A stretch of DNA of 64,000 nucleotides from Peribolospora baueri. Its lineage: Eukaryota. Positions 16,704 through 62,600 of this stretch are shown here, in pieces. The position numbers and the translations under genes were made by a program. Location of the stretch: assembly GCA_029717555.1 (NCBI GenBank), contig JAMDHS010000017.1, positions 124,001 to 188,000 on the forward strand, in the 5' to 3' direction. Under the pieces are notes generated by a model. It was not told where the DNA came from and did not search any database. It saw only the letters and a list, made by a program, of their open reading frames with translations. How positions within the stretch are numbered: the first letter of the stretch is position 1; every line of letters begins with the position of its first letter.

Positions 16704-16766
16704 GAAGACCTCCAGATTTCGTGCGGATCCTCGACTTCCCTCATTTCGTGTCTGTGCTGCTCGTCG
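16524..16766. repeat. Fold-back inverted repeat (hairpin)
   Basis: 16524-16585 is the exact reverse complement of 16705-16766 (62 bp). 16613-16647 is the exact reverse complement of 16669-16703 (35 bp). 21-nt loop; 27-nt bulge on the left arm. Confidence 0.97.
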
Positions 16767-16781
16767 GTGCGAGTGGCGCTC

Positions 16782-16853
16782 CTTATATACAGCGCATCAG
16801 AGGATCGCCTCCTTTTCCTTCCTCTCGTCCCACGCTCATCCACGTGCATACCG
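16782..16853 (-). mobile_element. Inverted, diverged LTR-like fragment with TATATAAG
   Basis: The reverse complement of 16788-16853 aligns to 15501-15563 at roughly 80% by eye. TATATAAG on the minus strand at 16782-16789. Confidence 0.75.
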
Positions 16854-18562
16854 CCCTACTGTAGCAACGGCGCTGCTGCTGCAGCAACTAGCAAGGAAGG
16901 CTTATTAACGGTCCCTTTCTTCTAACATCCCCGCTCCAGCCTCGCTGCGGCACGGAGAGGAGGACGATTGGACGGCGTTCCGGGCGACGAACTTTTACGT
17001 CTTTGCTACTTGCATACTTCCTTGAGGCCCGCGTCGGTGACAGAAGTTGAACGATGCGTGGGCTGGGAGGTATGTGACGGGCGGGTGACTCGGGCCGTCC
17101 GGCAGCCTGATCGTCGTTAGCGGCGGTAGCCAGCACTCGAACGAGGCCGGCGCTCCAGCGCATCATCGATGATGGGTGTCCTCGACGTCCGCAGCGCATG
17201 GTATGCACAGTAGGACGACTTGTTTCCATGCGTCGTTCAGAGTCTCCCGACGTTGGGTGCCCGCGTCCCGCTGCGAGCTCGTCTTAGGTCGTGTCGGCGC
17301 GCTTCTCGCGTCTCTCTTCTTTCTCTTCTCACAAACAAACCGTTTGGCCTACGAGGAGTACCATTTCTTCCTTGCTCGGAGAGGTTCGCGCGCCAACGTG
17401 GGAGAGCCGTCTCTCCCTTCGTTGGGGGGCGCGTCGAGTCCTCACTCAACGTGGCCGACACTGTCTGTCCCTAGCTTGACCGCTCGCCCGCTCTGTCTGT
17501 GGGGTGTGTATATAGGCAGCCTGGCGGTCTGTGGGAGCGAGGTCCAAACCGATGGAAGGTCGCCAGACGGGAACACAGCCGTCTGTTCCGTCGTTGTTGA
17601 CCCGTATGGCTGGCTGCCTATGACCGACCAGGAGGGGGAGGAAGAAGGAAGCGTCGTTGACGAATGAAGCGCAGAGTTGGTGAAGAAAGAGCACGCCCTC
17701 GACTGCGGATGGCTCCCTCGACTATGGGAATGGCGACGGCCAGCGGGATCCGGACGTCTTTGATGAAGCGAAGCGGAGTGAGTATTACTATGCATGCTGC
17801 GCAGTATACGGTGACCATGTCACTTGGGGCCGCAGCGCGAGAACGGCGTCCGGACTTGGACATCCCTCGGATCGTGTCCACAGTTCGGTGCAGTTTAAAC
17901 TGGGTGTCAGCGCGTCGAGGGACCGCCCGGTCGGTCGGTCGGCCACACATCCCGTCCCGTCCATCTGAGCTCCTGTCAGGTCGCGGTCGTCTGCGTAGGG
18001 CGCCTCGTCGTTTGTAAATCCACTTTGTCAAAGATGGGGCGACGGGAAGGACGGACGATAACGTCGCGGAGACGGATCCATCAGCACCTCCGCGACCTCT
18101 GGGGCCCCGGGACGCCCGGAACGTCCGGACGGAGGCCGGTCAGGGCGTCCGTGGTATTCGTCATTCGCCGAGTGCTGAGCCACTTGTTTTCCTTCTTCTC
18201 TTCTCCGAACCGTAGACACGTAGATACACAAGGAAGAAAGGGACGCCGGCTCCTGTGTTTACGTACACACCGGCCACTTCCGTCTGGGCCACCTGGGGCG
18301 GACTCGGGCAGCGGCCGGGAAAACGGATTTGCCGGCGCGCCTCCTGCTGACGTCGGCAGATTAGATCAAGGTAAAGAAAGGGTCGGGTCGACCGGCAATA
18401 CACAACGTCGCCGGTGCTCGTCGCTCCTTCTTCCATTAGTCAGTCACGTCCCCAGATCGGGGCGGGTGCCGGGACTGGGCGCTGTGTGTCTGGGGTAGCA
18501 CACAACGTCCGGCGATCCGGAATGGAGGCCAGGAGGGGATACGAAATTCCGTTGCCGGAGTG

Positions 18563-29095: not shown

Positions 29096-30704
29096 TCACG
29101 GTGCCACGCCTACCGCGCCATGCGCGACTGCGTCGCCGCCAGCCGCATTGACCCCGCCCGCGACGTGAGCGACATGGGCAGCGACGCTCGCGGCTGTGTC
29201 CTTCGCCCACCCTGCGGCTGCTTTTACGCCTTGCGCAGCTGCGGCGCGCGTTCGGTCGTCGTCTACGCCCTCCATGTCGAGGAAGAGTGGTTGTGGGTCC
29301 GCAAAGGCCTCGTAGAGGTAGATGAGGCCGAAGAGGAGGAAGAGGCAGGCACCTCCGAGGGTGACTGGCGCATGGTGAGGTGAAAGAGAAAAGACATCAG
29401 CATCAACCGTCCTGGGCGATAGGTCTCTTTCCGAGTACGTGCGACAGTCGATGCGCACCATGTTTTACAGAGATTTTGCTCGCCAAATATCGGCCGCCGA
29501 GCACCGCCAATGATGTGCACAGGGCATGGCCGATCACTGTCCCGATGGTGACAAGGTAGGGGTTCTGACCGAGGTCGAAAGGGAAGCGAGTGTGCGGGGA
29601 TGAGGGAGCGTTCCGACGATAGACCGACCAGGCTCCCTTTAAACCGCTGAACTCACATGTGCAGCTGCGAGAGCGATGGTAGCAATTTGGCTTCGATCTC
29701 CCCACTCTCCGAGGAAGGTCAACACGAACGCCTGAGCGAAGACAGGGCTGAAGAAGAGCTGGCAAAGGTTCCTAGCTCCTTCCTTGAAATTCTGCTTCGC
29801 AGCAGGTTCCCTTTTGTCGCCTAATGGTGGACGGGCCCGACCCCAGTCTCGGGAAACTTTGCTTGCCATGCCAGGCGTGGCGGGTCGCGATGGAGGGAGG
29901 GGCGAGTTGATGGCGTTGACAAAGTGGTCTTCCGTTTGCCCATCTTCGACCTCGCCCCTTCCGGCTTCCAGGGCCTCGAGCGAAATGGCCTCCCCGTTCC
30001 CGTAAACATTCCGCCCTTCCGCCTCCGCCTCCTCTTCCTCGATCTCCTGCTCCGCCTCTCTCAACTCCTCTCTCACCGCTTCCGTACCCCCTTCCATCTC
30101 CAATCCATCCTTGAGCATTTTGGCACCAAACACAAGGAAGAGCACTGATGCTGCGAACTCGGTAAGGGAGCGCGGGATGAGCGAAGGAAGGATATAGCCT
30201 AGCGCTGCGGAGAGGGCAGACATGACCGCTAAGGACAACCATGCGCCGAGGAAGACAGTCACGCGGGCACGGCGCATGGCCAGGATCGCAGCGATGAGGA
30301 ACGTCTTGTCCCCGATCTCGGACATCTGTCGGAGCGGAGAGGTGGATAAATGGAGCAGAGATAATCATCGCAGGTAATGAGAGGACGCTTAGGCGTGAGC
30401 ATGCACCCATTTCCTTGTGCGAGCGCATGTTTCGTCCACCCGTTGATCCATCAAGACAGTCTGTGCTTCCCTGGCTTGACCTAGCAGTGCTAAGTGGGAG
30501 CCGACGTCCACTCCGGGCCCTTCCCTTTACAAAGGGTGCAAGCCTGGGAGTGTTCCTAAGATTTAAGTATGCCGGAATACTCACGACGATCATCGCAAAG
30601 GAATGCCACAACGCTCTCGGATCCGCCTCCAGCAGCGCCTGGAAACGTCGGAGAGAGCTACCGTCGAAGGCCGTGGCGACGACGTCCGGCGTTACCGCAT
30701 CCAT
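29096..30704 (-). CDS. GDT1: GDT1/TMEM165 (UPF0016) Ca2+/Mn2+ transporter
   Basis: Two signature motifs, SEIGDKTFL and GEWGDRSQIATI, plus IGHALCTSLAVLGG. Confidence 0.93.
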
Positions 30705-31230
30705 GGCGGGTGTCGAGTACAGGTCCAACCCTCCGTAGACAGGCCAGAGTCCTACGAGAGCGAATTGGGAGGGAAGTGGCTTGAGAAGAGGTCTCCAAGA
30801 GCGGTCGAGCAGAGTGATCTTGGCGAGCAGAAGCGGGCTGTATCGTCCCTTCTTGGTCCCCAGGCTGGACGTGCGCAGTGACTGCGGTCGAGTAGCCGCT
30901 CGGCACGTGATGCGAGAGCGCGACGCGTTGTGCTTGTCCAATGAAGGTCGCTTGCGTGGCTGGTGGTTTCCTGTGCGCATGTGGGTTTGGATCTTCTGCT
31001 CGTGCTGCATCCATCGTCCGACCGTCCTTAGCGCCACTAACATACGGTACATTAACACGTACGCTGACGGACGGACGACAGACCGCTTACTTGGTCTTTT
31101 AAATTTTCTCTCTTCATCGACACACGACCGCGCCTGGCACAACTTCAGTGGCGACCGCCTCAGCTTCATCCGCCAACCGCGCTCACTTACCCGCCGTCGC
31201 AGGAGGAGCTAGACTCGCATCGAGTGTCCC

Positions 31231-34200
31231 ATGAGGCTCCGAAGCAGTCGATCAGTGGACACCGTTCCCACTTCCACTGACTCTCCAGAGAGGGAGGAGG
31301 AGCGAGAGGAGGAGATGGAGCTATCCAGCGACGATGGGGGTTCTCCTTGCCCGATGCTCGCTTCGTCGGTGACAAGCATTCCAGCACCAGATGACACCAT
31401 GCATTTCTCCGAACTTGGCATAGATGAGGAGGGCTTTTGCGCAGAAGGGGTTCAACCTGAACACGCCGAGCACGATGGGAGCCAATTTTCCGCCTTAGAC
31501 GTCCACACGCCATCCAATTCCTGGATCCCGGCGGAATCCAAGCACGGTCTCGAAGCAATCTCTCCCTCTCTCTTTACGACTATGACGCCCAAACCGAGTG
31601 GGCGTGAGAGCGGTTCTCTGCGAAACTACGCGCGTCTTTCAACTACGCTCTCCGTGGAACTCGAGCCTGGGACTGCTGAGGAAAAGGGCGCCGCGGACGT
31701 GGAAGAGGAAGGGGAAGGGGAAGGGGAAGATGAAGCGGAAGCGGAAGCGGAATGGATGGGCACGATGGACGAGGAGGCAGCACAGCGATGTCTCTGCCTT
31801 GAGAAGCTCGTGGAAGAGTCGCGTGTTGAGCTCGCCTTCAAAGAGAACGAGGTCGAGGCCCTGCGTTTGCAGGACGACGTACGACAACATTCTGTCGGGG
31901 CGGACGAGAGAGCAGTCCTTGTTGAGCAACAAGCAGAGCTGGACACCATCCGCGAAACGGCGCGGCGAGCGGCTGCCGATACCCAAGACAGGACGGCCGA
32001 TCTTCAGCGACAGCTCGACGAACGACAAGCTGAAGCCGACAAGACTCTTCGGACGCTTCGCCAGAGAGACCGAGAGATCGCCGCAGCTAAGAGGCTGCTG
32101 GTTGCTCTTGGCGGTAGCCTTCGAGCGGCGGCCTCCGAGTCCGGCCACCATCGCTCTCGTTCTCCATCCCCACTACCTCTGGATTCTCCTGGCTCCAGTC
32201 TCTCCCCCCGGTCATTCCAAGATGATTTAATAGACACGATCGAGCAAGCACGGATGGAGTGGCAGACGGTCCAAGACCAACTGGATTTCCTCCGTGTTGA
32301 ATCAGGTCTTCAGCTCAAGGACCTCGGGTTCACCGTTGAGGCGCAGGAACAGGAGATCAAACACCTCAAGGCCGAGTTACGAATCAAGGCGGAACTTCTA
32401 CATGCCGCGGAGGATGCTAGGCGGGACGCTCGGAGGGAGGTGGAGGAGGTGCACGAGCAGCTCTCCAGTCTTCAGGCCGATTCATCCTCGGTATCTGCTG
32501 TCGACCTCGCCCCATCGGTCGACTCCGACGCATCGCAGGTGCGCGAGCTTGAATATGCGCTGGAGGAGAAGTCCCAACTGATCGAGGCACAGGACCAGAA
32601 GCTTAAGGAGCAGCGGAACGTCCTGGAGGGTGTCCAAGATCAGCTTCGCCACGCCATCCAACAGCGCGAGAGCGTCGAGCGAGCACTTCGAGACAGAGAG
32701 GAGGAGGCGTTTGTCCAATCCGTTTCCGCGGACGCGTCTCGTATGCAAGGACTCGAGTCAGCTCTGGAAGAGAAGTCCCAGTTGGTGGAGGCCCAAGAGC
32801 AGAAGCTCACGGAGCAACGACATCATTTAGAAAGCATGGAAGAACAGCTCCGTCACGCCATTCAACAGCGCGAGGGCATAGAGCGAGCACTCCGAGAGCG
32901 GGAGGAGGAGGCTTTCGGTGCTCAAGAGCGCTTGGAAGCCTCCAGGCAGAGGACAGCGCGCATCGGCGACCTTTTCGACAAGCTCGAAGCCAGGCGGGCT
33001 CGGCTTCACGAACTGACAGCCCGGCACGACGTTCTTCAGCGCGGCGTCAAGGACGGAGCGGACCACATCGCGGGATTGGAACATCGGCTGTCGGCTTTTG
33101 AGGCCGATGCGGCCGAGTGTCAGCTCTCACATGAGAACATGGCCAGCGTACTAGCTGGAGTGCGACCTGGTGCGCCTGAATCTATGCTAGAAGCCGAGAG
33201 TGACAAGACGGCGATGGACTCATTGCAGCGGGAACTGGCCGAGGCGGTTCAAGAACGGGACGCGCAGAGGGAACAGGTCGCTGCGCTCGAATACAAGCTG
33301 GCGGCGTTAGAGGCTTCTCAGCATGACCTTGAGCAAGAACTCGAGGTTGCGAGGAGCGCAACGCCTTCCGCCAACACGGCGGTTGAAGCGGACCTTCGCG
33401 CTGCAGCGCAGACGTGCAGCGAGCTGGAGCAGGCGAAGGAGAAGCTGGTGGAGGAAATCGAGAACCTCAAGGAAGCTTCCGCTGTTGCGACGCTCGCGGC
33501 TGAGACCAAGTTGCGTGCCACCGAGGAGAAGGCAGCCTCCCTCGAATCTGCTCGGGAAAGTCTTGTAGCTGATCTCGACAACGCCAGGACTGAGACGGAG
33601 ACGCTTAGAGCCGAATTGGAGTCAAGCCTGCGTGCCGCCCGGGACAAAATTACGTTGCTGGAAGACGCTCAACAACGCGTTCGGATGGAGCTCGACGAAA
33701 CGAGGAATGCTCTCTCTGTAGCAAACACTAACTCGGACTCGACGGTACGCCTCGCACAAGAACGGACCAGGACACTCGAGATGGAGGTGGAGCGACTGTC
33801 GATGGAGCTCGGGGGGGCTAGAATGGCATTGTCCACGGTCCAGACGGAATCAGAATCGTCTCTCCGCTTTGCCGAGGAACGGGTCAGATCTCTCGAGGCC
33901 GAAGTGGGACGACTGTTAGCCCAGCTCGAGGACACCAAGACGGCTCTCTCCGCTGCGCTCTCGGAACACGCGGCTACGCAGGAGGCGGAGAACGAAAAGC
34001 TGGCGAATGAGCTCGAGATGACTCGGAAAGCTCTGTCTGAGGCGCGATCGGAAGCGGATTCCATGCGCCTCGCCGAGGACCGGGTCAAAGTCCTCGAGTC
34101 GAGCGAACAGCGGCTCTCCAACGAGCTTGAGGCTGCCGGGGTCATGTCAAGGGAAGCGGAACGAATCGCCGAATCGAAGATCAACAAGGCGCGTGAGACG

Positions 34201-35365
34201 ATCGAGTCTTTGGAGGCGGCTGTCGAGCATCTTCAGGCGGAACTCGGTGCGACGTCATCGGCTGCCGCTGCGGCCAAAGCACAGGCGGAATCGGACCGTC
34301 TCGCGTCTGAGGAGAAGATTAAAGTGCTTGAAGAAGCCCAGGAATCTCTCAGGGATGAGCTTAAGGATGCCAAGGCTGCAATGCCCCCGAAGGACGGACA
34401 GGAGGAAGAAGTCGAATACCTCAAGTCTAGGATCGAGGAGTTGGAGAACGACTTGACAGAGAAGGCAAACGAAGTCGAGGAGGCAGATGACAAGGTACGA
34501 GGGTGTCTTAATTGGAGAGAGTGCCGATGGAGCAATCCTGCCAACGTTTGCCTTCGCTTTCACTACTTTGCAGTTTCTCGCCTCGCTCAAGAACGAAAAG
34601 CGACTCGCTGTTAAAGTCAAATCGCTTCAAGAGAAACTCGAAAAGCTCCAACGTCAGGGAGCTTCCTCGGCCGGACCTTCGCCCTCTCCGCCGTTGCAGC
34701 GACCGTCGCCGCTCCGAGTCGGCGAGACAGTCAGCTCTAAGCCAGAAGAGCCACCGAAAAAGCAACTTCCGGCAGACACAGCCCCGGTGGAGCCCGCTCG
34801 CAGCGTCAACGGGAGCGTCACCCGAAAGAGGGCTTTGCCTGACGAGTTCAACCCCGAGTCGACTTCTCCTGGTCGAGCGTTCACATCTGCGCGTCCCATC
34901 CTCCTACCCAGCTCTCATCGGACTACGACCAGCAACGGCTTCACTCCCGTCCGCCGGAGCAAGACTGCATCGCTCAACGGTGGTCAGCGTCAGGCGTCCG
35001 GACTCCGACAAGAGGTCTTCTCGGCCCCCGCGAACGGGGAGAACACATATCCGCCCACGCCAGGTCGATCGAAGGTTGCTCGTACGCGCGGTACTGAGCG
35101 CGGCGCTGAACACACCGAACCGAGCCCTGTGAAGAAGACGGTCTCGAGTCGACCGGTCGTTTCGCGTCCGAAATCGCCGACCAAATCAAATGTGCATGCT
35201 GTTCAGCCTGTGGTCAAAAAACTTGCAGACAGGACAAACACGGCGGAGGTTCCTTCGCCAGGGGTAATGACTTCGGCAAAGACACCTCTCAAGTCTGCGG
35301 CGGACGTGGGTGCCGGGCCAGAGGCGATCATGGCGCGCCTCAAGGCCATGCAGCGAAGGTTGTGA
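31231..35365 (+). CDS. Long coiled-coil protein with internal repeats and a Ser/Pro-rich tail; one intron near 34495-34572
   Basis: 1127-codon ORF rich in E/L/A/R/Q heptads; EADDK|FLASLKNEK splice into the 34487..35365 frame. Confidence 0.8.
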
Positions 35366-40600: not shown

Positions 40601-43511
40601 GGACGCCTTCCAATGCTTTGCCGACGTTTGGATTTGCATGGGCGTGATCAGGCCGCATCAAGTGACTCCGTCGTCGGACCTTCATCAGGCCAACTCTTGT
40701 CTTCAGCCCGCGGCCAGTTCTGATCCTGGACATCAAAATGGAAGTCAGATGGTGAGCTTAGCTACGGTGGCCTCATTGCTATGTCTACTCACTGACAGAA
40801 GCCTTTCTCTTGCACTAGCATTGCGTTTCCCCTTTCAACTCTTCCCGCCCTTCGGAGACCTCGTTCCCGCAATTGCTCGAGTTGTTCCGATCAACGACCT
40901 TGGCAGGGCCCGACATTGCCGACCGTTTATTCGTTAAATACCATGCATCACCATTCTGTTTGGAGCAGGTTTGGACGGACACGATCAAATTGCTCGCAAA
41001 ACTCGACGACGTCGGCCAGGATTCGCAAGTGTCGCGCATTGGCGACATGCTAGCTCGACTCTCCAAATTGACCAACACCTCCCTGGACAAAACGATCCTG
41101 CGGTGGGCATCAGACGGAAACTTTGATCCGCAAGATGGTGCAAGTTCCGGGCTGCCTGTTTCACCTTCGCAGAACAAACTCCCCATCTGGTGCCTTCTTC
41201 TGCAAGAGCTCATCTTGTCAGCAGAGCTGTCGAGTACAACCCTGCTCAGCGCGGTAGTGATTCCTCTCCTCCGATCAAACGAGAGGAATCCTGATCCTAC
41301 TTCTGCACTTGAGATCGGCTATGCCTTGGTCCACTTCATCCTCGGGGTCGGCGCGGAGGGTGCGGCGAGCCAAAGTGACACGGTTGCAGGCGCCTCGCCA
41401 TTTCGCGCTTTCCATCTTTGGGCACAACGGCAGGCACTGTTTGAGCCATCTACCTTTCCTCAACTCCTTCGACTGGTATCACTGCTTGCTTTTCACGAGC
41501 GGACATCAAAGGGAACAGTCGCGGCCGACTGCGCGGTTTTGCGGGAGCATATCACCAGGCTACCGATGTTCAGCGGGTCGGCTTTAAGAGATTTGGAGGA
41601 GTTAGGCGACATTATTGTCCGTGAACTGGCAGATCAAGGCCAGAGCGAGGATACCGACGTCATCTGCATGCAGATTCTTCACTCGAGTCCACCGAGCGAG
41701 GTCAATGGTAGGTCCAGTGTACTGCTTCATTTACTTTTTAAATGGTTATACGCTATCAACGTGCTCACGACTTCATCCGTATTGTTCCCGGCAGGGTTTC
41801 CGCCGGGCGCTCAAGACGATTTTACAGCTGCTTCGGTCGATTCAGATGTTTGGCATGCTCATGCCGCCTCTCTAAGGTTTCGCCTCACGCTAGCGAAGCT
41901 CTGCGGCGACATGAAAGATCCACAGAAGGCGCCCGCCGCAGATGTGGCTCTCGATGAACTGGTGGAGCAGTTCTTCAGTGACCAGAGCGGAACGTTGGGC
42001 GCGAGCATGGTTCAAAAACATCTTGCCAGTCTCGATGTCGTTGGCCTAAGCAAGGTGGGCTCTCTTTGCTATCCTGTCGCGGCCACGCCATTCTCTGGGC
42101 TAAATCCGAATCCGATCTTCCTTATCCAGTTCGCGGAAGTGGCGTTTAAGCGTCTTCTTGGAGACCTCGAAAAGCAGACGGACTCTAGCTCTCGCACCAG
42201 CTCGTCTGAATTATGCCGTCAGCTTGCCTATATAATTTCGCGGTCGGAGGGACATCGTCTACCCGCTCTTTCCTCACCTGTCTGCGAACAACTACTCGCT
42301 TTTGTCACTCATGTCTTCGAGGCCATTGCCCAAGGTTCTCCCAGGGCTGACGACGATCCTAAGTGGCGAGACGATGTTGAGCTGCTTGTGCACGTGCTGC
42401 ACGCAGTTCTCAGGACGCAATCGGCCTTCAGCGGAGCGAGCAAGACGTATGCACCTAGGCTGGCTTGCGCCTTGATCCGGGTCGCTTTGGTGAGCAGACC
42501 GTAGTGTTGATAGAACCCAGCGACCTGCTCATGACTATTTTCGTCGTTCGAACCCCCAGCGTTACGAGGAGGAAGAGGACGACCATGTTGGGTTTACAGC
42601 CCTTCTGGACACACTCGTCTACTTGTTAGATGGTGAGGATAATCTGCCTGCTTCAAACTGTTATGATCGTAGCACTCAAACACGGGCTTATTCGTAACTG
42701 TCATACAACATCAGAGCTGCCCACAGAAACAAAGGCTTGTGCCTACGAAGCGATTAGCCAAGCGCAACCTTCTATCTTGTCTTGCGCTGCTACTTCGGAC
42801 GTCCGAGGGCCGGTATCTGTCCAGGTCTTGGCTCGTCTTCGACATGTCCTGCCTCCCGATCGGCAAGACTCGCTTGCCGAGGGTCTCGTCATCGCGCCTT
42901 CAGTGTCGGCCGCAGCCGCTGAGGACATCGCGCCGGTGATCGCCAAGCCGTGGGAGTGGGCTGAACTGATTGAGCCGCTCAATGACGTGCAGTCCAGAAC
43001 AGCTCCGCTTCGCAATGCGGGCTCTCTCTCCCTGGCGAGCTTCTCAGTTCGCAAGACAAGAGAGATACCCGAGTCGGCGATCACGCACAAGACGACGCTT
43101 GAATCGGAGCGGTCGTACGACGAGGGCGTCGAAAGCGTTTCGCTCTACGCAAAGGGCTTTAGGAGAGGGCTGGCTCCCATGTCGTTTGCGGACGATATCG
43201 AGGACGACAAAAGCGTTGACAGCGATGAGGACGGCGCGGGCTCCCCGGACGGCGTCAAGGAATGCGCGGCGCAAAGCGAAGAAGTCGAAGAGCTTGACAA
43301 GAAGCCGCCAGGCGAGGTCATTGATCTTTCCGCAGACTCGCCGCCTCCAGAAGCTGCCCCGCCGAGCAATTTGAAGAAGTCCAACCCGAAGAAGCGCCAG
43401 GCACCCGAGGACGTGATAGACGATGCGGACGGGTCGGCCGCAGTGGTTCCTGCACCGACAAAGCGCGGCGGTAAGAAAGGCGCAAGCATCCGAGGGAAGA
43501 AGAGGAAGTAG
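37622..43511 (+). CDS. MED12: Mediator subunit Med12 (Srb8), many exons
   Basis: Med12 domain LPSRVTLNDMKLAAWIRDLADPNVPLQKVGRSLPHGYRG...RAVWFIR; FGELVRLGLFSFVKYLQRLIAKG. Confidence 0.9.
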
Positions 43512-43665
43512 CGATGAACACCGCCACCGTCTATACGTATCTCGATTTTTTGTGATTCCGTCAACGAGTTTCGAGTCTTGAGGAGGCACGTTGACGACTA
43601 GGGTGCATGGTGGTACATTCGAGAAGACAGATACTCGTACAATCACAAGATTCTCGAAACACGCA

Positions 43666-46600
43666 TCACAATTCGTCCGTCTCATCCCCAGATTCGAACT
43701 CCAGCTCGTGTGTCTTGCGGCTTTGAAAATAGCGAAGGGAAAGATGTGGGCGCGGAAAAAGGGTGAAGAGGAAAAATGTGGATAGACAAATTTGACATCA
43801 GTGTTGACAATGGTAGAAGGGACGGAAAGAGAAGGGAGTCCATGTATCGAGAAAGAGTGTCCTAGGTATCGAGGAAAAGAAAGCGTCCACAAATCACGTA
43901 GATCGAGAGGAGCAAACGGGGGGGGGGGGGCGGGGGCCATATCATCCGATCTGATTTGACTCAGCCAGAATCAGAAGAAGGACAGCTCCTGCTCAAAGAA
44001 ATCTGTGCCAGCGCAGGACTTGTCGGCGCCCAAGCTCTTCTTCCTCGATCGGAACCAACTGCTGATGCCCACTGGCGTGCCGGGAACGGAAGCCGGGCTG
44101 GCAGGGCTCAAATCGCCGGACCGGGACTGGGCCGCGCGCTCGTTCGCCCGGACGGCGAAGTGGGACGACGTGGGCGGCTGGGGACGCTTCTGGAGCTTGC
44201 GGCCCGTCTCCGCGTCTAGGGTGAGGCTGAGGACGCTACGAGGTCTCGACGGTGAGGGAGGGCCCGGAGTCGGGTAGCCGTCCTCGGGGAGGTCGATATC
44301 GGAGGGTGAACGGCGGTTACCCACGCCGATGCCCACGGTAGGTGCGAATACGGCTTCATATGGGGTGCTCGCTTCGATGGATAGGAGGGAGCGATGGCGT
44401 GGGCGGGAGAAGGGGCTCCCCGGAAACGGGGTACGCAGAGGCAGATGATCGGACGGAGGCATCGAAGGGGCAGCGACCATAGAGGGTTCGATGAAGAATG
44501 GTGGGGAGACTCTTCGAGACGAGACTGGCGAGGGTCCCGCGAATGGCACGGGTGAGACGCGGGGAGATGCGCCAGTCCACATCAACGGAGTGGATGGCGC
44601 GGGCCGGGAAGAAGGGACAAAGTCGGATGAACGCTCAAGATGCTCGCGCTCGCCCTCCTTCTCCTCTACGTCGCAAAGGACATCCTTAGTACCCTCGTTC
44701 GAGCTCGTTCGCTTAAAAGAAAGCAGCGAAGGCAGCAGCGAAGGTCCTGGAGACTTGGTGGGGATGACCGCAGCGCCTCCCTTCGCTGAATCGGGGTCGC
44801 TCGCTTGACGTTGTTGTTGCCCAACCGCTTCGCCTTGCGGCCGTTCAGAATGATGCTCTCCCGCGCTACCGCCGTTTTCCTCTCGGTCCTTCTTTGGAGA
44901 TTTCTGGTCATTCCCTCTTTCCGGTGGACGCCGCACGTCATCTTGGCTACTGCTGATGCGCGTACCGACCTCCAGATCGGGAGAGAGACCAAATTCCTCG
45001 AACAGAGGGCTGCCACTCTTGCTCCGCTTGTGTCCGTTGGGAGTCATAAAACTGATCTTGCTTCCGAGTGAGGATAGTGCGTTCATACTGAAGCGACGAG
45101 CGCGAGCATCCTTGGACGACGTAGACCGTATAGAGGGTACAGATGGCGGGGTAGTCATTCCGTGACCCGAGCCTTGCGTGGCGACGTTCAGTCGTAATCC
45201 AGAGAGAGGACGCCTCGGAGCCGGGAGTTCATCGCGCGGGAAATCAGTGACGCGCGTATGCAAGTCATTGGGAGGCCCGCCTTCCGTCCAGCCGCCGCCG
45301 TGGGCCGTCCTTTTCTCGTCTCCGGTCGGAGCATGCCCATTCGGCTCGAGCGCGGATGTCGGCACGCTTGTCGTTTTTCGGAGACCAAGAACCGCGAATG
45401 GCCGGAATCGACCGGCTGGCGGCACCGAGCTGGCCAGAGTAAAAGAGGAGGTTGGAGGAGTCAGTAAGGGATGTCCATATGTGAACAGGCTGTCGTAAGA
45501 ACAACCGACCCTCTGCAACGTCGCTGGACGAAGTTTGGCACGCACCCGTAGACTTCCCCCACAATCGATCGAAAGCATTCCACCACAAGCGTTCTCGAGA
45601 ACAGCGGACAAAGAGGAGAGAAAAAAAAACCGGAGCAGATGAAAAGGAGCAGACAGACACTAACCTTCGCTTGTTCGGATTAGCGAGCGACATGCCCGGT
45701 TTCGGCTTGGTCGGCGGCTTGGGGGGTTCCTCCCCCTTGCTGGCTAGGGATGGGTTGGACGACGCGAGATCTCGTTTCTGAACGGGCGTCGAACAACGGC
45801 AGACGACCAGGTTCAAAATCAGACGGAGCTTGCGACGAGCCGCAGACGAGGGCAGATGACGGATCTGGTCTTCGAGCTTGGACTCACCTCTCTTACGAGC
45901 CTTTCTACGTCGGCCTTGAGCTTGTCAATCTCCTCCTTCAGTTTGGCGTTTTCGGCGAGTAGGCTCCGGATTCTTTCACCTGAGGTTGAAAAAAAAAGTT
46001 ACATATGAGCATCGGCAGAGAGTCGTCCTCAGTCGTACGCGATCCCGAACAGACATGACTCACCGTCGACCTCGTTCCCGTCGCGGGGAGGCTTCGTGCC
46101 CTGCGCAGCATCCACACGGCACGAGCCTGTATTTACTATTTGAGACACGAACTGTTTCCGCCAGTTGGCGATCCCAAGCAGAAGGAATCGTTAATGAGCG
46201 TCGTGCAGATGAGACTCGCGAGACCGCAGGCTCAGACTCGCCTTGGCCGCCAATTCCGTGGCTCGCCTTGCCGAATCGGTGATCGATAGGCGGGACAAGC
46301 GTAGGACGAGAGGGTGTGTATGGGCATGATCGAGGACGAGCTAAGCAGCGGGGTTCGAGAAAGGAGAAGTATGAAACGAAACGCACGACGTGCTCAGCAT
46401 GTTTTCTGTAGAACGCACGAAGGACAAGTGTAGCGACAGTTTCAGACGTCCCCGCTCACTTCCATCTCTGCAGTCGAGTCGGAGACGGGGAGAACGACGT
46501 GCATCTCCCCTTTCTGCCAACTTGCGAGCAGATGGGAGAGAAGCAGCGAGTAATGTCGTGTTTCCGTCTTGGCGAGCTGTCCGGACGAGGAGAAGGCGAA

Positions 46601-47169
46601 GCAGCGGAACGGCATGCACGACAAGAAACGAGGCGAGTTAAACGCGGCACAGCTGAGAAGGGGGAATCCTGGGTGGAGGGGGCACTCACCAAGACGTGCC
46701 GTATCTCCCTCTCCCCCCTCCACCTTCCCTCCCACCAGGTGCCGCCATCGAACCCCTCCACCCTGCCCACGCTCACTCTCCACATCCACTCGCCGCTCGG
46801 ACCGTTCCCCCCTTCCGTTCCCTTTACCACATCAGCCTCCGCCTGCTCTTTCTGATTCTGGGCAAACTTGCGGTCCCATGGCCCCTTCCAGAACTCTTCG
46901 TCTGTCCCTCCTCCCGAGCCTTCGCCGCGACGCGCGGGGACGCGAGCGAACGCAGACGAAAGGACGAAGCGACCGCCATGCTCGTCGTGAATGACAGAGA
47001 CAAGTCCGTCGAGGGAGGAGAGGGAAGCGAGCGGATCGGCGGGCGAGTCGGGGCTGTTTTGCAACTGCGCCTGCGCCTGCGCCTGCGATTGCGATTGCGA
47101 TTGCGATTGCGGTCGCGGTTGCGAAGGAGCGGCGCGACTCGGCCGGGAGAGTGGACGCTGCGAAGACAT
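43666..47169 (-). CDS. PAXX: PAXX/XRCC4-superfamily-like NHEJ factor (predicted 347 aa, 7 exons)
   Basis: Exons 47169-46690, 46576-46460, 46340-46242, 46151-46064, 45979-45888, 45777-45665, 43720-43666, all phase-consistent. Head-domain-like strands RFVLSS, WRVSVG, WWEGRW, LVLRLSRL; coiled coil; C-terminus PGMSLANPNKRSRKTHELEFESGDETDEL*. Confidence 0.65.
43971..45429 (-). CDS. Large Ser/Pro-rich exon inside the last PAXX-like intron (alternative terminal exon, or nested gene)
   Basis: 485 sense codons ending DFFEQELSFF*. Preceded by a CTGAC branch site, pyrimidine tract and CAG, in phase with the donor at 45664. Confidence 0.65.
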
Positions 47170-47632
47170 GGGGCCAGCGCTGCCTGCCCGCGCGCCTGCG
47201 TGCCTTGACTGGCGCGGCGAGAAAGGGGACGAAAAGGGGACTTGGTGTGGATACGACGTCGAGATGAGACGGGCGGCGGTGGTTCGAGCAGTGGACGGGT
47301 GCTGATATCGGCCGCGAGGATAACAACATCGCCCCGATCACTCCGTCGCGAGACCTTTCAGCCGTTTAAAAGTCGCATTACAAATCGATAATCGAACGAG
47401 TTTGGGCTTCTTACGATTGATCGATGGACGGCGTCTCGCAGCACCGAAGAGATCCTCTCGTTTCATCTTTCATCGCTTACACGAGGACGCAGACGACGGA
47501 CGCATGGCGACATTCGCACCAACAACAAGTTGCAAGCAAGTCAATGGTCCAGTCCACGCTGTCCCATCCGGTTATTTGGCTATTAACGATCCATTCTGCC
47601 CGCCGAGCAGGCTCTAATTCGCTCCAAGCACT

Positions 47633-51052: not shown

Positions 51053-52479
51053 TCAGAGGAATAAGCGGAAAGGATAACCTGACGGATGTGGAACAACCAC
51101 CATGTCAGAAAGCAATGCCAATAAAATCGAGAGCTTCAATCAGAGCAGGCGACATCCGAGAGCCTACTTACCCCCGTTCTTCATCCTGAACACGTTGATG
51201 AGCACGGAAAAGACGAAGAGGAGGACGCCGGACCAGATATAGACGCCCAGACGCTGGCGGAAGGGGTCGGTCTGCTTTGGAACGAGGATGGTGAGGGCGA
51301 TCACCGAGATAGAAAGGATGCCGTCTGCGAGCGTGGGAAGGAGAAGGGGCTAGGAAAGATCAGAGTCCGTTCCCTCGGCCACGCGCAGTGCGTCAAGGAA
51401 GCGGTCATATGAGGCGCGACGTACGCCCGAAGCGACGACGAGACTCACAGAGGGTGGCCACTATCTGTGTCTCCATCCCATACTGGTTCTGGAATCCAGC
51501 GGCAATATAGCTGACCGTGCCGTCAGGCCCAGCAGCCACATAGGGCGTTCCGCGAATGCGGTTCCACATGTACCCGCTGGTCATGACGAGGATCATGCCG
51601 AGCCCCAGAACCTGCCAGAGGTACTTGGAAGTGAGGACGAAGGTGAATGAGGAGAAAAAGACGGTGCCGATAAGAACGGCAATGGAGCCGATCACAAGGG
51701 CTGTGATGATCAAGCCGTAGGGAGGAGGTTTGCGAAAGGGAACCCGCCCTGAGATCTGCCCGGAGATCGTATCGGCGAGGTCACCGGCATCGAAGCCACT
51801 GTAAAGGGAGAAGTAAACGACCGTGGTGAACTGACATGAGCTTCTGGGCACAAGTGAGAGCGACGTCTCGGCGATCGACCCACAAGCGGTTGAAGTCATA
51901 TTCCACCGGATCGGTTTTGCCGGTCGCATACGGTCCTTCCGTTGGCGGATAAAAGTACAACATCGGAGCGTGCTGGAGGCCCATCTGTTCCACGAAACCG
52001 TCGAAGGGGCGAGCGTATGTTCGTAAGCATGCACTGTCATAAAAATTTGGAGAAGACGGGAATGAAAGCGTTGGGATGATGGAACCCACCCGCTGGAAGA
52101 TCTCCTTTCCATTCATAAAGTCCAGGCGACCGAAAATGTGCCTCTCCTTCTCAGGCGATTTCTGCCATGCCTTGGCGACGAGATTGTACTCGGGGTCAAA
52201 TTGGCGGCAAGGGTGGCATTTAAAGAGCGGGTCGGTGGCCGTCAGGAGCATGGAGACGGAGTAGTTCCTGGGGCGGGCGATGAACTCGTCGAAGCTGTGC
52301 AGGTCCAGCTTGACCACGCCGCCCTCTTGCGCAGCGCGCTCGTTGAACTTGGCCTGTCGCTCCGCCGGGAAAGAGGCTGCGCGCCCGTGGGCATGGGCCC
52401 CGGCATGAGCGGAGACAAGGCCGAGGGCGACGAGGCAGGTAAGGAGGAAAAAGAAGAGAGGGGGTAGCCGGCTCGTCAT
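51053..52479 (-). CDS. OST3: Oligosaccharyltransferase subunit OST3/OST6 family
   Basis: Signal peptide; thioredoxin-like CHPC; TSGYMWNRIRGTPY; GFQNQYGMETQIV; KNGGYPFRLFL*. Confidence 0.93.
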
Positions 52480-52661
52480 GTTGGTCGCACTCGGTCAGGA
52501 ATCGACGCTCGTCCAGCCGACCTTCTAGTCAGCCAGCGCAACCGCCATTGCTGCGGCGACCCTGTCGGTGCGAAGTTCCGAGGCAACCCCTCAGCGTTCG
52601 CCTGGTTCTCCTTGACTCGCAACCACGAAGAAGGCGACTGCGACGATGGTACGCCATCGAC

Positions 52662-53906
52662 ATGTCCAGCTTTACCGTTTTTCTAGACCCTCCCACGAAA
52701 AGCGAGCTCAGCGTCGAGGTGCCGCCGTCAGGTGCTCGCGCCATCCCTGATTATTTCCGGACCCATATAAATGCTCTCGGCGAACACGAGTCGCTGACTT
52801 GGCCTCCTCCACCGGAGGTGTTCGAACCGGCCGCCATCGAGAGGGAGCACGCTTGCCAGGGAAGTGTGTTTGCCCCTCCGAAACGCCAAGCTCGACCTGC
52901 CGACGTTAACCTGACCGAGTACACTCGCTTGGGAGATGCAAGGAACGAAGTCGCGACCGCTCAAGGTCTCTACGCCGGCGTCATCTTCGGTGACGAGGAA
53001 GAGCACTCGTTAGCAGTCGTGGACAATCAGAGGGACACGACGCCTGACAGTCAATGGTATCGGTGTGTACCTGAACAGCAAGGTACTCATCTGTTCTATG
53101 GAGTAGAGGTAACGAAGACCGCGAGAGAGCTGCTGTCGGGAAGGATCAACGCACTCACATGGACCCGACTTTTTTTTTTCTCAGTCTCGGACATGGCGCC
53201 CCCAAGTCGCTCGGCGTCTCTCACTTGCTCTTTCCTGGACACGTCCCGTCCAGACACCACAAGGGTTTCTCTCAGCCAAAGCTCGTCCAGCCGCGAAGTT
53301 TCGACCTCAGATGAGACCACCCTCCCGCCCTTGCCTATTTTCGCGTTCGCCCTGGATCACCTCTCTCTCATTTCCACCATCCGCTCCCAACCCATCCGAG
53401 GCCACAAGTCTGGCGGGAAGGTCAACCTCCTGGTGAAGCTGTTACACGTCGAGGATGCGCAGCAGGTCACGACGAGGGACGGAAGGAGGATAAGCATGGG
53501 CAAGATGGTCGTCATGGACGAGAAGAAGAGCCTGTTGAAGGTCACTCTTTGGGGTGAGGTCGCTGATGAGTGGACGGAGGCGATGAGGAGCGGAGACGTC
53601 GTGTACATGCAGGGTGAGCAGGCGCCGGTCCGTCTCTTTATTTTCGCCGCCTCGTGCTGTCTGTGATGATGGCCCCCTTGTCCCCACTGTCGCACCTACA
53701 ATGCTACCATCGCATCAGGGATAGCCATTTCGACCTACCAAAACGTACTCCAAGGCACCGCCTCAGTCCGAAACCCATCCCGCTACCAGATCTGCTACCG
53801 ATCCAAAGTATACGACCGCTCCGACAAGCGGTACAACTTCGACCTACGTTTTGCGGAAATGGACTTGCGCGCTGCCAAGGTCAAGCAGCTCGTGAGAATG
53901 TTGTAG
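52662..53906 (+). CDS. OB-fold ssDNA-binding-like protein resembling shieldin subunit SHLD2 (N-terminal motif plus first OB fold)
   Basis: MSSFTVFLDPP; KVNLLVKLLHV...VVMDEKKSLLKVTLWGEVADEW...RSGDVVYMQ|GIAISTYQNVLQGTAS...YQICYR...*; intron 53614-53718. Confidence 0.6.
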
Positions 53907-59655: not shown

Positions 59656-62600
59656 ATGCAAAGAACGGCGGTAACAGCAGCGGCAGCACGTCCTCGGTGC
59701 TCAGGGCGCCCTCGATCGAGCTCCTCATCTGGCCCATCGCCCTTCCTCCACCGTCCGGCTCCCCACCGCTCCCCCACTATCCGCCCGCCGCTCTCCTTCC
59801 CTTCTTTCCCTAGGCTCGACAGCTCCTCCTCGTCGACTCTAACGTCCGCTCCCAATGCGTCCTTGACGGCGGCCTCAAAGCCCTTTACGCAATTTTGCCC
59901 TCTCTCCACCTCCGCCTTTCCTGCTCGCACGCCCGTCTCTTCCGGCTCCGGCCCTGCCCAGGGACACGGACGCAAAGGCTATTCGGACGGAGCAGAGCTG
60001 GGACGCCACTTCTATCTCAACAAACAGCTGGAGGCCTGGGCTAGCCGACCCGCTAATAGGATGACGTTGAGGCAGCTGGTGTTTTTTGGCAAGACGGTCG
60101 TCCGGGACCGCGAGAGGCTTTTGAAGGTACGTTTGTCCGAGCCCGGCGGGCGGGGCGGGTTCAGAAAGAACGGAAACGAGCTCACGGCGTCTCGTTGACC
60201 TTCTACGGGATTGTGGCCCTCCCAGAGCGCAAATTACGTGAGTGTCGCGCCTCGCCTAGGAGACGCTACCCTCGTCAAGGATATCTCGTCCTCTTCCCCG
60301 ATTGGCCCCAGCTGACAGTGCTCGTCCCCTGGCTCTCGCCTCTGCGATCTTTCATGTTACCTGCGACGTAGGTCCGTCAAGAACTGCCGATACGCATAGC
60401 GCATCGCATTCGAGAGCTGCAAGCGCTTCCTTTTGTGGTGATGACCAACTCTCACATGGAGGATGTGTACAATGTGAGCGCGCGGAAGGTCCTCTCTTAA
60501 CGACGAGTTCAAAGGTTCGGATCGCCTGATGCAATCCTCGTTCCCGATCCATTCTTCTAATCGGCCCCTCGCGCAGAAATATTGGCGAGCATTCGAGCTG
60601 TAAGTGGTGTCCCATCAGTTAAATAAAGGCAGCAGCGGAGTCGTATCCTATCTCACGATTGCCACGATCCGCTGAACAGTCCCGCTTTCGATCCCTTTTC
60701 TCATTTCGATGGATCCAGCCTCCGCCGTTTTCCTCCTGTGAACACGTTCGAGGACAACGATCGGTTTTGCGCCTTTGTCAAGAGCTTACTCGAGGAACAG
60801 TGAGCGCCCCGGGCGGCCTGTCAGTTTCGCGGTTTGGCTAGCGCACACGTTCCTGACCATGTGGCCGTACATCCTTCCCTCCTCCAGCCTGACAGTCATC
60901 CCCTCCCTTGCGCTCGGCATCGTAGAATCGGCGCACCATCTTCCAGCGACTCAACTCGATCGGTTCATGACGTCGATGCTCCGCTCGCGCATCTCCCGCC
61001 GCGTCCTCGCAGAGCAACACATCGCCCTCTCCGAGGCGCTCGACGACCCTTTCCATTTCCCCGCCTCCGGGGAGGGCAACGAAGGCGAGCGGGTTGGGAT
61101 CGTTTACACGCATTTGAGCGCGTACAGCGTTGTCAGCAAAGGAGCTCGGCTGCTGAGGACCATGCTCATCGGAAGGCTGGTGAGAGGAGAGGAAGGGGAC
61201 GTGGGAGCGTTGCCGAGCGAGGAGGAAGCCGGGCGGTATGTGCCGTGTGTGGAGATCGACGGCGATCTCGATGCGCGGTTCGCATACATTCCGGAGCATC
61301 TGGTGAGCACTGGACGTCTCCGACGACGATGCCTACGTTCATTTGGAAACAGCATTTATCATTTCCCGCGCCGTTCTCTTTCACAGGAATACATCACGTT
61401 CGAGATCCTCAAAAACGCCATGCGAGCGACGATGAGACACCATCGCCGCTCTTCACTACAAAAGGAAAGTCAAGAGGGCCAGCCGCCGGCGGAGTGTCCT
61501 CCAATCAAGGTGACCATCGTCGAAGGTCCGCCAACATCAGACCTTATCATCCGCGTGTCCGACCAAGGTGGCGGCTTCCCCGATGCGGAGAGTCTCGCAC
61601 ATGATGCTACTCATCCAGACGCAAGCTCGGGCGTGGACACATTCCATACAGTTGGCGAGGCGGCCCTCTCGAACCCTTCCATGTACACGCCCCAATCTCT
61701 CGTTCCCGAGGGTCACCCTCGTATGCCTCCGGTGCCGCCCCGACGATCCCACGCGTCAATCAGCTCCTCCGCTCTGACTCTCTCTCGAGACCCCCTAGCC
61801 GATGTCCTCTGCTCCTTCTCTTGCGTCGGACGACGACTCAGCCAATCACCAGACCCGCGTTCCCACGTGGCAGAGGTCGGCCCAGACGGCAGCTCTGCGC
61901 CCTTGCCTCCACATCGAACCATGTCCGAGGCCACGTTAGCCGGTGTGTCCAGCGCGGTGACGAGACCAGACGACGGACTCGAGGCCCTGCGCTCTGTGCG
62001 CTCCTTTAAAGGCACCGTCGAAGAGCAGCTGTTGCCCTCACCGATGTCCAACGGTATCGGAGAAGACCCGACAAACCCCGACCACACCACAATCACCGCA
62101 GATGATTTGAATCGGCCGGAAAGTGAACATGGCTCGCTTTCCACCACCTCAAGGGACATCATCGACCCAGCTGCGGGGAAGGCAAAGCGACAGCGGACTC
62201 GCTTGCCGAGGTCGGACGAAGGCACGGGGGCTGCGGCGCTACAGATGGAGACGGGGCTCGGGTTGGTGAGTGCGGTCGCCGGCTACTTTTTGGGCCTGGT
62301 TAAGGCTATCCTATCGTCGAGTGCAGACCTGTTCATCGTACGATTGTTCCCTGCACGTTCTTCTTGTTCTCCCCGCTACTACGCTGACTCCGTTTTGGCC
62401 TACCTTAACGGTTGAACCCCTTTCGTCCCCTCAGCCGATGAGCAAAGTCTATGCAGAGTTCTTCGGAGGCTCACTCACTTTCAAGTCACTCGACGGGTAT
62501 GGGTCGGACGTGTATATCAGTGAGTAGCGCGCGCCGTTCTTCCGCTATCGTGTCGCCTTTTCCTTCGAGGGAAGTTTCGTGCCGCTTTCACCGAAGCTCA

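What the first reader, a model, noticed from the sequence alone, without database searches (positions are those of the whole stretch)
43666..45777. PAXX-like Ku-binding tail is split by a 1.94-kb intron hiding an in-frame 1.46-kb alternative last exon: a possible splice switch for NHEJ
Seen: the donor after ...PGMSLANPNKR-AG (GT at 45664) has two phase-compatible acceptors. The distal one (43721) adds a 55-nt exon giving SRKTHELEFESGDETDEL* (347 aa). The proximal one (45430; CTGAC branch site, pyrimidine tract, CAG) adds 485 Ser/Pro-rich codons ending DFFEQELSFF* (815 aa). Other introns here are mostly about 70-250 nt, so a 1944-nt intron largely filled by an open frame is anomalous. Knowledge: human PAXX ends PGESLINPGFKSKKPAGGVDFDET, and the V-x-F residues are needed for Ku binding. 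Inference: only the short isoform rebuilds the full motif (L-E-F for V-D-F). The long isoform would keep the head and coiled coil but swap the Ku anchor for a disordered tail. A same-strand nested gene (in-frame ATG at 45578) is the alternative. An automated gene caller could easily miss the small exon.
Basis: partly seen in the sequence, partly recalled or inferred. Interest (0 to 1): 0.85.

Follow-up and report, generated by a model that had tools for sequence, protein, structure and literature searches.

The report
Fungal PAXX-like gene, two possible tails
A gene in a smut-fungus relative resembles the DNA-break-repair helper PAXX, and its Ku-docking peptide is split by a 1.9-kb gap holding a long in-frame coding block, so it may make two proteins with different tails, though no RNA data could be found to prove it.

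Summary
The donor at 45664 and both phase-compatible acceptors (45430 and 43721) are real, and the products are 347 aa and 815 aa, provided one GC-AG intron upstream is accepted.

The upstream exon encodes PG-x-SL-x-NP, which matches Patch 1 of the human PAXX Ku-binding motif as printed in PMC10413649. It occurs once in the six-frame window against 0.009 expected.

The 55-nt distal exon supplies L-E-F-E at the spacing of human V-D-F-D. It is the only one of 8412 AG sites in the window to do so. Both acceptors are among 35 of 8412 sites that pass a strict acceptor filter.

The 485-codon block is real coding DNA. An open frame that long has a chance of about 3e-8.

Nothing could be confirmed from outside this sequence:
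- No RNA run was listed and no genome is held.
- No homologue of either part was found.
- Pfam gave no PAXX, XRCC4 or XLF hit on single exons.
- The spliced protein could not be folded.

The lineage is a poorly sampled Ustilaginomycotina-like basidiomycete.

Generic similarity to the human tail is not significant for either exon. The long form also keeps a Phe at the same spacing.

My reading: one PAXX-like gene, with the proximal splice dominant and the distal exon probably also used (about 0.45). This is not shown.

The parts
46690..47169 (-). Exon 1 (160 codons from ATG 47169). A low-complexity N-terminus is followed by a beta-rich presumed head region.
   Evidence: No Pfam, PDB, ESM Atlas or protein-library match. 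AF2 on residues 40-160 gave pLDDT 40.
46460..46576 (-). Exon 2 (39 codons), flanked by GTGAGT/GTGAGC introns of 113 and 119 nt.
46064..46340 (-). Exons 3 and 4, with an uncertain internal intron. The model uses a GC-AG intron at 46241-46152 to remove an in-frame TAA at 46193-46191.
45888..45979 (-). Exon 5, a coiled-coil segment (30 full codons).
   Evidence: 13 leucine-zipper or coiled-coil Pfam families matched, all below their cut-offs.
45665..45777 (-). Exon 6, a Pro/Lys-rich linker ending in the Patch-1-like peptide. It ends with two bases of a codon.
45676..45699 (-). PGMSLANP, a match to Patch 1 of the human PAXX Ku-binding motif (PGESLINP; S184 and N187 are essential).
   Evidence: 1 occurrence in 127,996 six-frame residues against 0.009 expected.
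45663..45664 (-). Shared donor GT (AAG|GTTAGT).
45430..45664 (-). Proximal 235-nt intron. TACTGAC lies at 45466-45460, followed by a 58-nt AG-free tract and CAG at 45432-45430. The in-frame ATG at 45578 lies inside it.
43971..45429 (-). Long exon: the junction Ser, then 485 Ser/Pro-rich codons and TGA. It begins ...PPAGRF... and ends with a basic cluster followed by ...LSFF.
   Evidence: No homologues and no Pfam match.
43723..43861 (-). A 139-nt AG-free, pyrimidine-rich tract before the distal acceptor. It contains the branch-like CTGAT at 43801-43797.
   Evidence: 10 of 8412 AG sites have an AG-free run this long.
43721..43722 (-). Distal acceptor AG, in an AAG context.
43666..43720 (-). The 55-nt distal terminal exon. 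One base completes the Ser codon, and 17 codons (RKTHELEFESGDETDEL) and TGA follow.
43693..43704 (-). L-E-F-E, a match to Patch 2 of the human motif (V199-D-F201-D).

Best explanation
This is one minus-strand transcription unit in a poorly sampled Ustilaginomycotina-like basidiomycete. It encodes a PAXX-like accessory factor of non-homologous end joining: a presumed XRCC4-type head, a short coiled coil, and a Pro/Lys linker ending in Patch 1 of the PAXX Ku70-binding motif.

Its last donor (45664) has two real acceptors.
- The strong proximal acceptor (45430; 235-nt intron) attaches a 485-residue disordered Ser/Pro-rich tail. It is probably the main product, because it is transcribed first, has a consensus branch site and gives a normal-sized intron.
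- The distal acceptor (43721; 1944-nt intron) attaches 18 residues that complete the two-part motif with L-E-F-E and an acidic end. That gives a canonical PAXX-type protein able to dock on the Ku70 vWA domain.

The choice of acceptor would set how much of the homodimeric scaffold carries a full Ku anchor.

Shown here: the sequence features and their statistics. Inferred: the PAXX identity, the use of both sites, and Ku binding.
For: (1) Patch 1. PG-x-SL-x-NP occurs once in the six-frame window against 0.009 expected. It sits after a coiled-coil exon in a Pro/Lys linker, as in human PAXX, whose peptide and essential residues are printed in PMC10413649.

(2) Patch 2. Only 1 of 115 AG sites downstream of the donor, and 1 of 8412 in the whole window, gives [VLIM][DE]F[DE] 3-12 residues after the junction and within 15 residues of a stop. 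Under four looser definitions, 4-7 of 8412 sites qualify, which is 0.055-0.096 expected among the 115.

(3) Acceptors. A strict filter required an AG-free zone of at least 40 nt containing CTRAY and at least 70% pyrimidines. It passes 35 of 8412 AG sites. On the minus strand between 43000 and 47400 it passes exactly two, and they are these two acceptors.

(4) The long ORF is real coding DNA. The chance of such an open frame is about 3e-8 (from the composition), and the other frames are broken. It is in phase with the donor.

(5) Reading through the donor gives 133 Cys/Trp/Phe-rich codons that do not look like protein, so the donor must be spliced.

(6) No consensus GT donor inside the long exon could reach the small exon in phase. 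The two exons are therefore alternatives, not consecutive exons.
Against: - No transcript evidence could be obtained.
- No relative could be obtained, so conservation of either exon is unknown.
- Pfam gave no PAXX, XRCC4 or XLF match on single exons, and exon 1 has 0 matches in 1.84 billion representatives.
- The head fold is untested.
- The distal acceptor is AAG. From my general knowledge, not a tool result, this is a minority class in fungi.
- Its intron would be about 17 times longer than the other five introns (84-119 nt).
- A consensus acceptor lies upstream of it, so the spliceosome should strongly prefer the proximal site.
- Plain BLOSUM62 similarity of the distal peptide to the human tail is unremarkable (rank 708 of 8412).
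- The motif definition was chosen after seeing the sequence.
- The long exon keeps a Phe at the same spacing, so it may not need the small exon.
Confidence: 0.45

Rival explanations
1. Only the proximal acceptor is used. The gene makes a single 815-aa protein: head, coiled coil, Patch 1, then a long disordered tail. The 55-nt 'exon' lies in its 3' UTR and is either a chance match or a relic of an older gene end.
For: - The proximal site has a consensus branch site (TACTGAC), a pyrimidine tract and CAG. Its 235-nt intron is the same order of size as the gene's other five introns (84-119 nt), whereas the distal intron is 1944 nt.
- The distal site is AAG with a 1944-nt intron.
- The long exon starts with ...PPAGRF..., keeping P-A-G and a Phe at N+13. 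It scores slightly higher than the small exon against the human tail (rank 256 against 708 of 8412).
- Pyrimidine-rich, AG-free tracts also occur in intergenic DNA, so the 139-nt tract is not proof of an acceptor.
Against: - The small exon is the only one of 8412 AG sites with the acid-flanked hydrophobic-x-Phe at the right spacing and near a stop. It also passes the strict acceptor filter, which 35 of 8412 sites pass. If these two properties are independent, fewer than 0.001 such sites are expected among the 115 candidates.
- The long exon's Phe sits in a basic context (G-R-F-R). In human PAXX the matching Patch 2 faces Ku70 R517, so the charges would clash.
Confidence: 0.3
2. Only the distal acceptor is used by the PAXX-like gene, giving 347 aa. 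The long ORF is a separate same-strand gene nested in the 1944-nt intron, with its own promoter and the ATG at 45578.
For: - There is an in-frame ATG at 45578, and the frame is open from 45659.
- The long ORF has no detectable link to repair proteins.
- The short form alone gives a complete canonical tail.
Against: - A promoter would have to fit into about 86 nt between the donor and the ATG, and a terminator into about 250 nt before the small exon.
- The consensus branch site and CAG at 45430, in phase with the upstream donor, would be a coincidence lying inside the nested gene's coding region.
- The stretch 45659-45430 has lower GC3 (0.47 against 0.65) and T-runs, so it looks like intron rather than coding sequence.
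- The only typical donor in it (GTGCGT at 45545) would shift the frame. This is my reading.
Confidence: 0.1
3. The gene is not PAXX-like at all. It is some other coiled-coil protein, and both motif matches are coincidences.
For: - No profile or sequence search recognises any exon.
- The fold is untested.
Against: - The two halves of the motif occur in the right order and spacing, after a coiled coil, at a C-terminus. Their window-level expectations are 0.009 and 0.014.
- The failure of searches says little here. A neighbouring 561-aa ORF also finds nothing, and a conserved kinase is only 39-50% identical to its best relatives.
Confidence: 0.15

Closest known systems
Human PAXX (C9orf142) and its P-KBM, residues 177-204. 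I read passages and the Methods of PMC10413649.
   Same: - The inferred architecture is head, short coiled coil, flexible tail.
- Patch 1 is kept as P-G-x-S-L-x-N-P, including the Ser and Asn whose mutation abolishes Ku binding.
- A basic stretch follows, then hydrophobic-acid-Phe-acid near the C-terminus (short form).
- The Asn-to-hydrophobic spacing is 11 residues here and 12 in human.
   Different: - There is no detectable sequence similarity outside the motif.
- There is a 45-residue low-complexity N-terminus, and a long insert in the presumed head.
- The motif is split between two exons 1.94 kb apart.
- Nine residues rather than three follow the Phe.
- An alternative 485-residue tail is in frame.
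Plant PAXX (AtPAXX). I read sections 5-8 of the bioRxiv preprint 10.1101/2023.05.26.542399.
   Same: It shows that very divergent PAXX orthologues exist outside animals and keep a C-terminal Ku-interacting motif built around a key hydrophobic residue (L228).
   Different: - The preprint names animals, C. elegans, amoebae, ciliates, excavates and plants. The text I read does not name fungi, and its Figure 1 and Table S1 were not visible to me.
- It describes no split motif and no alternative tail.
XLF-like motifs of XLF, WRN and MRI. I read passages of PMC4831024.
   Same: The long exon ends with a basic cluster followed by a C-terminal ...LSFF. The paper defines the motif as a basic patch followed by a conserved Phe, usually at the C-terminus.
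   Different: About 20 residues separate the basic cluster from the terminal Phe-Phe here. In the printed XLF and WRN peptides the gap is 2-4 residues. This is a lead only.
Fungal Nej1/XLF and Lif1/XRCC4
   Same: They belong to the same superfamily and are the known fungal NHEJ scaffolds. From my general knowledge, both have long disordered C-termini.
   Different: Pfam gave no match on single exons at E up to 1. From my knowledge, the PG-x-SL-x-NP signature is PAXX-type and is not found in XLF or XRCC4. Whether this genome has separate Nej1 and Lif1 genes could not be checked, because no genome is held.

Membership tests
PAXX (Pfam PF15384; XRCC4 superfamily) | Match to the family profile | tested here: not met
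   0 Pfam families at E up to 1 for exon 1 (160 aa), exon 2 and exon 6, each scanned alone. The spliced protein could not be submitted, so this is a weak negative.
PAXX (Pfam PF15384; XRCC4 superfamily) | XRCC4-type head (beta-sandwich with a helix-turn-helix) followed by a stalk helix | tested here: inconclusive
   AF2 on residues 40-160 (exon 1 only, no alignment) gave pLDDT 40.4 and is unusable. The head spans three exons, and the spliced protein could not be folded with the tools allowed.
PAXX (Pfam PF15384; XRCC4 superfamily) | Short coiled coil after the head | tested here: met
   exon 5 (30 aa) matches 13 leucine-zipper or coiled-coil families, all below their cut-offs. The heptad-like sequence is visible.
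PAXX (Pfam PF15384; XRCC4 superfamily) | P-KBM Patch 1, with the Ser and Asn equivalent to S184 and N187 | tested here: met
   PGMSLANP against PGESLINP. The pattern is unique in the six-frame window, with 0.009 expected.
PAXX (Pfam PF15384; XRCC4 superfamily) | P-KBM Patch 2 (V-x-F) near the C-terminus | tested here: met
   Met only in the product of the distal exon (L-E-F-E). The proximal product has G-R-F-R at the same spacing.
PAXX (Pfam PF15384; XRCC4 superfamily) | Binding to the Ku70 vWA domain | not testable with these tools
   No Ku sequence of this organism is available, and the spliced tails could not be submitted.
Alternative 3' splice site or alternative last exon | Both junctions present in RNA | not testable with these tools
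   no RNA holder was listed. This says nothing about whether the gene is expressed.
Nested gene within an intron | Own transcription start and own start codon | tested here: inconclusive
   An in-frame ATG exists at 45578. No promoter evidence is obtainable, and the composition of 45659-45430 looks like intron.
XLF-like motif (PMC4831024) | Basic patch followed by a conserved Phe at the C-terminus | tested here: inconclusive
   the long ORF is the only one of 658 ORFs of at least 60 aa that has both a [LIVMF]F end and a 4-of-5 K/R cluster in its last 30 residues. The spacing is wider than in the printed examples, and the definition was made after seeing the sequence.

The most novel reading that the evidence does not exclude
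Through the choice of 3' splice site, one fungal gene switches the same homodimeric PAXX-type scaffold between two different Ku anchors. One is a complete PAXX-type motif, which would dock on Ku70. The other is a long phosphorylatable disordered tail ending in an XLF-like motif of a basic patch plus a C-terminal Phe, which would be a Ku80-type anchor. A single locus would then cover the partly redundant PAXX and XLF roles and could tune end joining.
Probability: 0.07. Interest if true: 0.85.

Novelty: new variant of a known kind. Interest (0 to 1): 0.5.

Why it matters
PAXX is described as an ancient but patchily kept NHEJ accessory factor. The papers I could search do not name a fungal PAXX, and one states that budding yeast lacks it. 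A basidiomycete gene carrying both halves of the Ku70-binding motif would extend the family into fungi and offer a genetically tractable setting for PAXX function.

If both acceptors are used, the locus would be a natural experiment. The same dimeric scaffold would exist with and without a complete Ku anchor. That bears on how the number of Ku contacts stabilises the pairing of DNA ends. It also bears on control of end joining against homologous recombination, which matters for gene targeting in fungi.

For annotation, the lesson is that a gene caller would almost certainly report only the 815-aa fusion and miss the 55-nt exon.

Tried and rejected
- **RNA evidence.** No RNA holder was listed for 43500-47400, so read laying could not be used.
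- **Whole genome.** None is held, so Ku, Lif1 and Nej1 could not be sought.
- **Homologues.**
  - Exon 1 against 1.84 billion representatives gave 0 hits.
  - The long exon against the 5.8-billion-protein library gave 0 of 8000 scored candidates.
  - The first metagenome scan gave 160 pattern matches and 0 relatives.
  - The second metagenome scan, with the head region, gave one locus, L001. Local tblastn showed this to be only the 8-residue search pattern on a 64% GC contig, so it is not a relative.
  - As a control, a neighbouring 561-aa ORF also finds nothing. These blanks reflect a poorly sampled lineage, not absence.
- **Other libraries.** Pfam, PDB sequences, Rfam and the ESM Atlas (no usable hit; best 0.86, below the level that counts) gave nothing.
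- **Structure.** AF2 on exon 1 gave pLDDT 40.4, so no fold search was run.
- **Coding signal.** GC3 and a codon-usage log-odds profile trained on 11 long ORFs of the window are too weak in this genome to place the coding start. Training ORFs themselves score only 0.01-0.15 bits per codon.
- **Similarity to the human tail.** The BLOSUM62 local score against the 13 residues after NPGFK is 16 for the distal peptide (rank 708 of 8412) and 18 for the proximal (rank 256 of 8412). Neither is significant.
- **Long exon as an internal exon.** I tested whether it could splice onward to the small exon. No GT donor of consensus type is in the needed phase. There are only three weak GC-type matches, and the eight in-phase GT sites in the last 400 nt do not fit the consensus. 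Rejected.
- **An intron for a nested gene.** A donor at 45545 joined to the acceptor at 45430 gives 116 nt, which shifts the frame. Rejected.
- **Earlier notes of this scan.** None exist for this genome or sequence.
- **Literature.** One search was badly framed and returned nothing relevant.
Full report

Yes. On the minus strand, exon 6 (45777-45665) ends ...PGMSLANPNKR plus the two bases AG, and is followed by the donor AAG|GTTAGT (GT at 45664).

- Splicing to the AG at 43722-43721 adds a 55-nt exon. One base completes a Ser codon, and 17 codons (RKTHELEFESGDETDEL) and TGA follow.
- Splicing to the AG at 45431-45430 adds the same Ser codon and then 485 Ser/Pro-rich codons that end ...LSFF.

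This holds only if a 90-nt GC-AG intron (46241-46152) removes an in-frame TAA at 46193-46191. One search lists other in-frame boundary pairs, so the middle of the protein is uncertain by about 20 residues.

The gene's other five introns are 84-119 nt, against 1944 nt for the distal splice and 235 nt for the proximal one. The in-frame ATG at 45578 is there.

**2. Which organism, and can anything be compared?**

A pyruvate/branched-chain ketoacid dehydrogenase kinase gene at about 59.9-62.5 kb finds 94 relatives. The best are all Ustilaginomycotina (Violaceomyces, Thecaphora, Pseudozyma, Tilletia, Exobasidium, Meira), but identity is only 39% over 87% of the query, or 50% over 42%. The window therefore comes from a basidiomycete with no close annotated relative.

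Consistent with that, a neighbouring 561-aa ORF also finds nothing. So the blanks for the gene itself say little:
- Exon 1: 0 hits in 1.84 billion representatives.
- Long exon: 0 of 8000 scored candidates.
- Two metagenome scans: no true relative.
- ESM Atlas: nothing usable.

No RNA run was listed and no genome is held. Everything below rests on this one sequence and on published knowledge of PAXX.

**3. Is it PAXX-like?**

Sequence searches do not say so. Pfam gives no family for exons 1, 2 or 6 scanned alone, and PDB sequences give nothing. AF2 on the part of the head encoded by exon 1 is unusable, with pLDDT 40. The spliced protein could not be submitted to these tools.

The case rests on architecture and motif.
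- Exon 5 is coiled-coil-like. It matches 13 zipper-type families, all below their cut-offs.
- It is followed by a Pro/Lys linker and then PGMSLANP.
- The Methods of PMC10413649 print the human peptide as RRRCPGESLINPGFKSKKPAGGVDFDET.
- That paper shows a two-part interaction with Ku70. Patch 1 needs S184 and N187. Patch 2 needs V199 and F201.

The fungal peptide keeps P, G, S, L, N and P of Patch 1. The pattern PG.SL.NP occurs once in 127,996 six-frame residues, against 0.009 expected from composition.

**4. The small exon**

It supplies L-E-F-E with the Leu 11 residues after the Asn (12 in human), after a basic stretch, and before an acidic end.

- Of 115 AG sites downstream of the donor read in the same phase, it is the only one with [VLIM][DE]F[DE].
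- Of all 8412 AG sites in the window, on both strands, it is the only one with that motif 3-12 residues after the junction and within 15 residues of a stop. That means 0.014 expected among 115 sites.
- Four looser definitions give 4-7 of 8412, or 0.055-0.096 expected.
- Separately, the acceptor follows a 139-nt AG-free pyrimidine tract, a length reached at 10 of 8412 sites, which contains CTGAT.

Against it:
- The acceptor is AAG.
- The intron would be far longer than any other in the gene.
- A plain BLOSUM62 comparison with the human tail is unremarkable (rank 708 of 8412).
- The motif definition was made after seeing the sequence.

**5. The long exon**

An open frame of 485 codons has a chance of about 3e-8 at this composition. 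The other frames across it are broken, so it is real coding sequence.

It is joined to the donor by a textbook 3' splice site: TACTGAC, 58 AG-free pyrimidine-rich bases, then CAG. A strict acceptor filter passes 35 of 8412 AG sites. In the minus-strand interval 43000-47400 it passes exactly two, which are the proximal and distal acceptors.

The stretch between the donor and 45430 has lower GC3 (0.47 against 0.65) and T-runs, which fits an intron.

No consensus donor inside the long exon can reach the small exon in phase. The two exons are therefore alternatives.

- The long exon begins ...PPAGRF.... It shares P-A-G with the human peptide and has a Phe at N+13, the same position as in the short form, but flanked by Arg instead of acids. 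It ranks 256 of 8412 against the human tail.
- It ends with a basic cluster and ...LSFF. It is the only one of 658 ORFs in the window that combines these two features. This recalls the XLF-like motifs printed in PMC4831024, but the spacing is much wider.

**6. Weighing the models**

- Reading through the donor gives 133 implausible codons, so splicing is needed.
- The proximal site is too good, and too well phased with a real ORF, to be unused. This argues against a purely nested gene (0.1).
- The small exon combines a rare motif, the right spacing, a position near the terminus and a rare acceptor-like context. This argues against pure chance. However, fungal spliceosomes favour short introns and the first good acceptor (my general knowledge), so the short form may be minor, conditional or a recent relic.
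- I put both sites used at 0.45, long form only at 0.3, nested gene at 0.1, and not PAXX-like at all at 0.15. The last overlaps the others.

**7. Comparison with what is known, and novelty**

The preprint on plant PAXX (sections 5-8 read) lists PAXX in animals, C. elegans, amoebae, ciliates, excavates and plants. Fungi are not named in the text I could read, and its Figure 1 and Table S1 were not visible. A 2026 preprint states that budding yeast lacks PAXX. Two searches that paired PAXX with fungal terms found no paper describing a fungal PAXX.

This would therefore be a new, very divergent member of the family. If the two tails are real, it would also be a new variant: a Ku-binding motif split across an intron that carries an alternative in-frame terminal exon.

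**8. Limits**

No claim about expression, regulation by DNA damage, dimerisation or Ku binding is shown. The statistics use one 64-kb window as their own background, and the motifs were defined after the fact.

Noticed in passing
window 43974-44070 (-): The long exon ends with a basic cluster (RSRKK) followed about 20 residues later by a C-terminal ...LSFF. It is the only one of 658 ORFs of at least 60 aa in the window with both features. This resembles the XLF-like motifs of XLF, WRN and MRI, but the spacing is wider.
   Followed up: partly
window 46152-46241 (-): The gene model needs a GC-AG intron (AAG|GCGAGT ... AAACAG) to remove an in-frame TAA at 46193-46191. Other boundary pairs are possible.
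   Followed up: partly
window 52443-53663 (+): A 407-aa ORF matches the first OB fold of shieldin subunit 2 (PF21669, 29.2 bits against a cut-off of 26) and an RPA OB domain (23.4 bits, below its cut-off). It may be an RPA-like single-strand-binding protein lying 7 kb from the PAXX-like gene.
   Followed up: no
window 15619-16905 (+): An ORF with a copia-type gag match just below the cut-off (25.7 against 27 bits). This is probably a retrotransposon remnant.
   Followed up: no
window 59900-62520 (+): A multi-exon mitochondrial ketoacid dehydrogenase kinase gene. Its best relatives are Ustilaginomycotina at only 39-50% identity, which places the organism in a poorly sampled branch.
   Followed up: partly
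window 31213-34611 (+), 6-2510 (-), 29775-31208 (-), 40819-42501 (+): Four open frames of 478-1133 aa have no Pfam family at E up to 0.001. One of them also has no homologue in the protein library. The lineage seems rich in unrecognisable proteins.
   Followed up: no
window 43511-43666: Only 154 nt separate the stop of the small exon (43666) from the stop of the convergent plus-strand ORF (42630-43511). The two 3' UTRs must therefore overlap or be very short.
   Followed up: no
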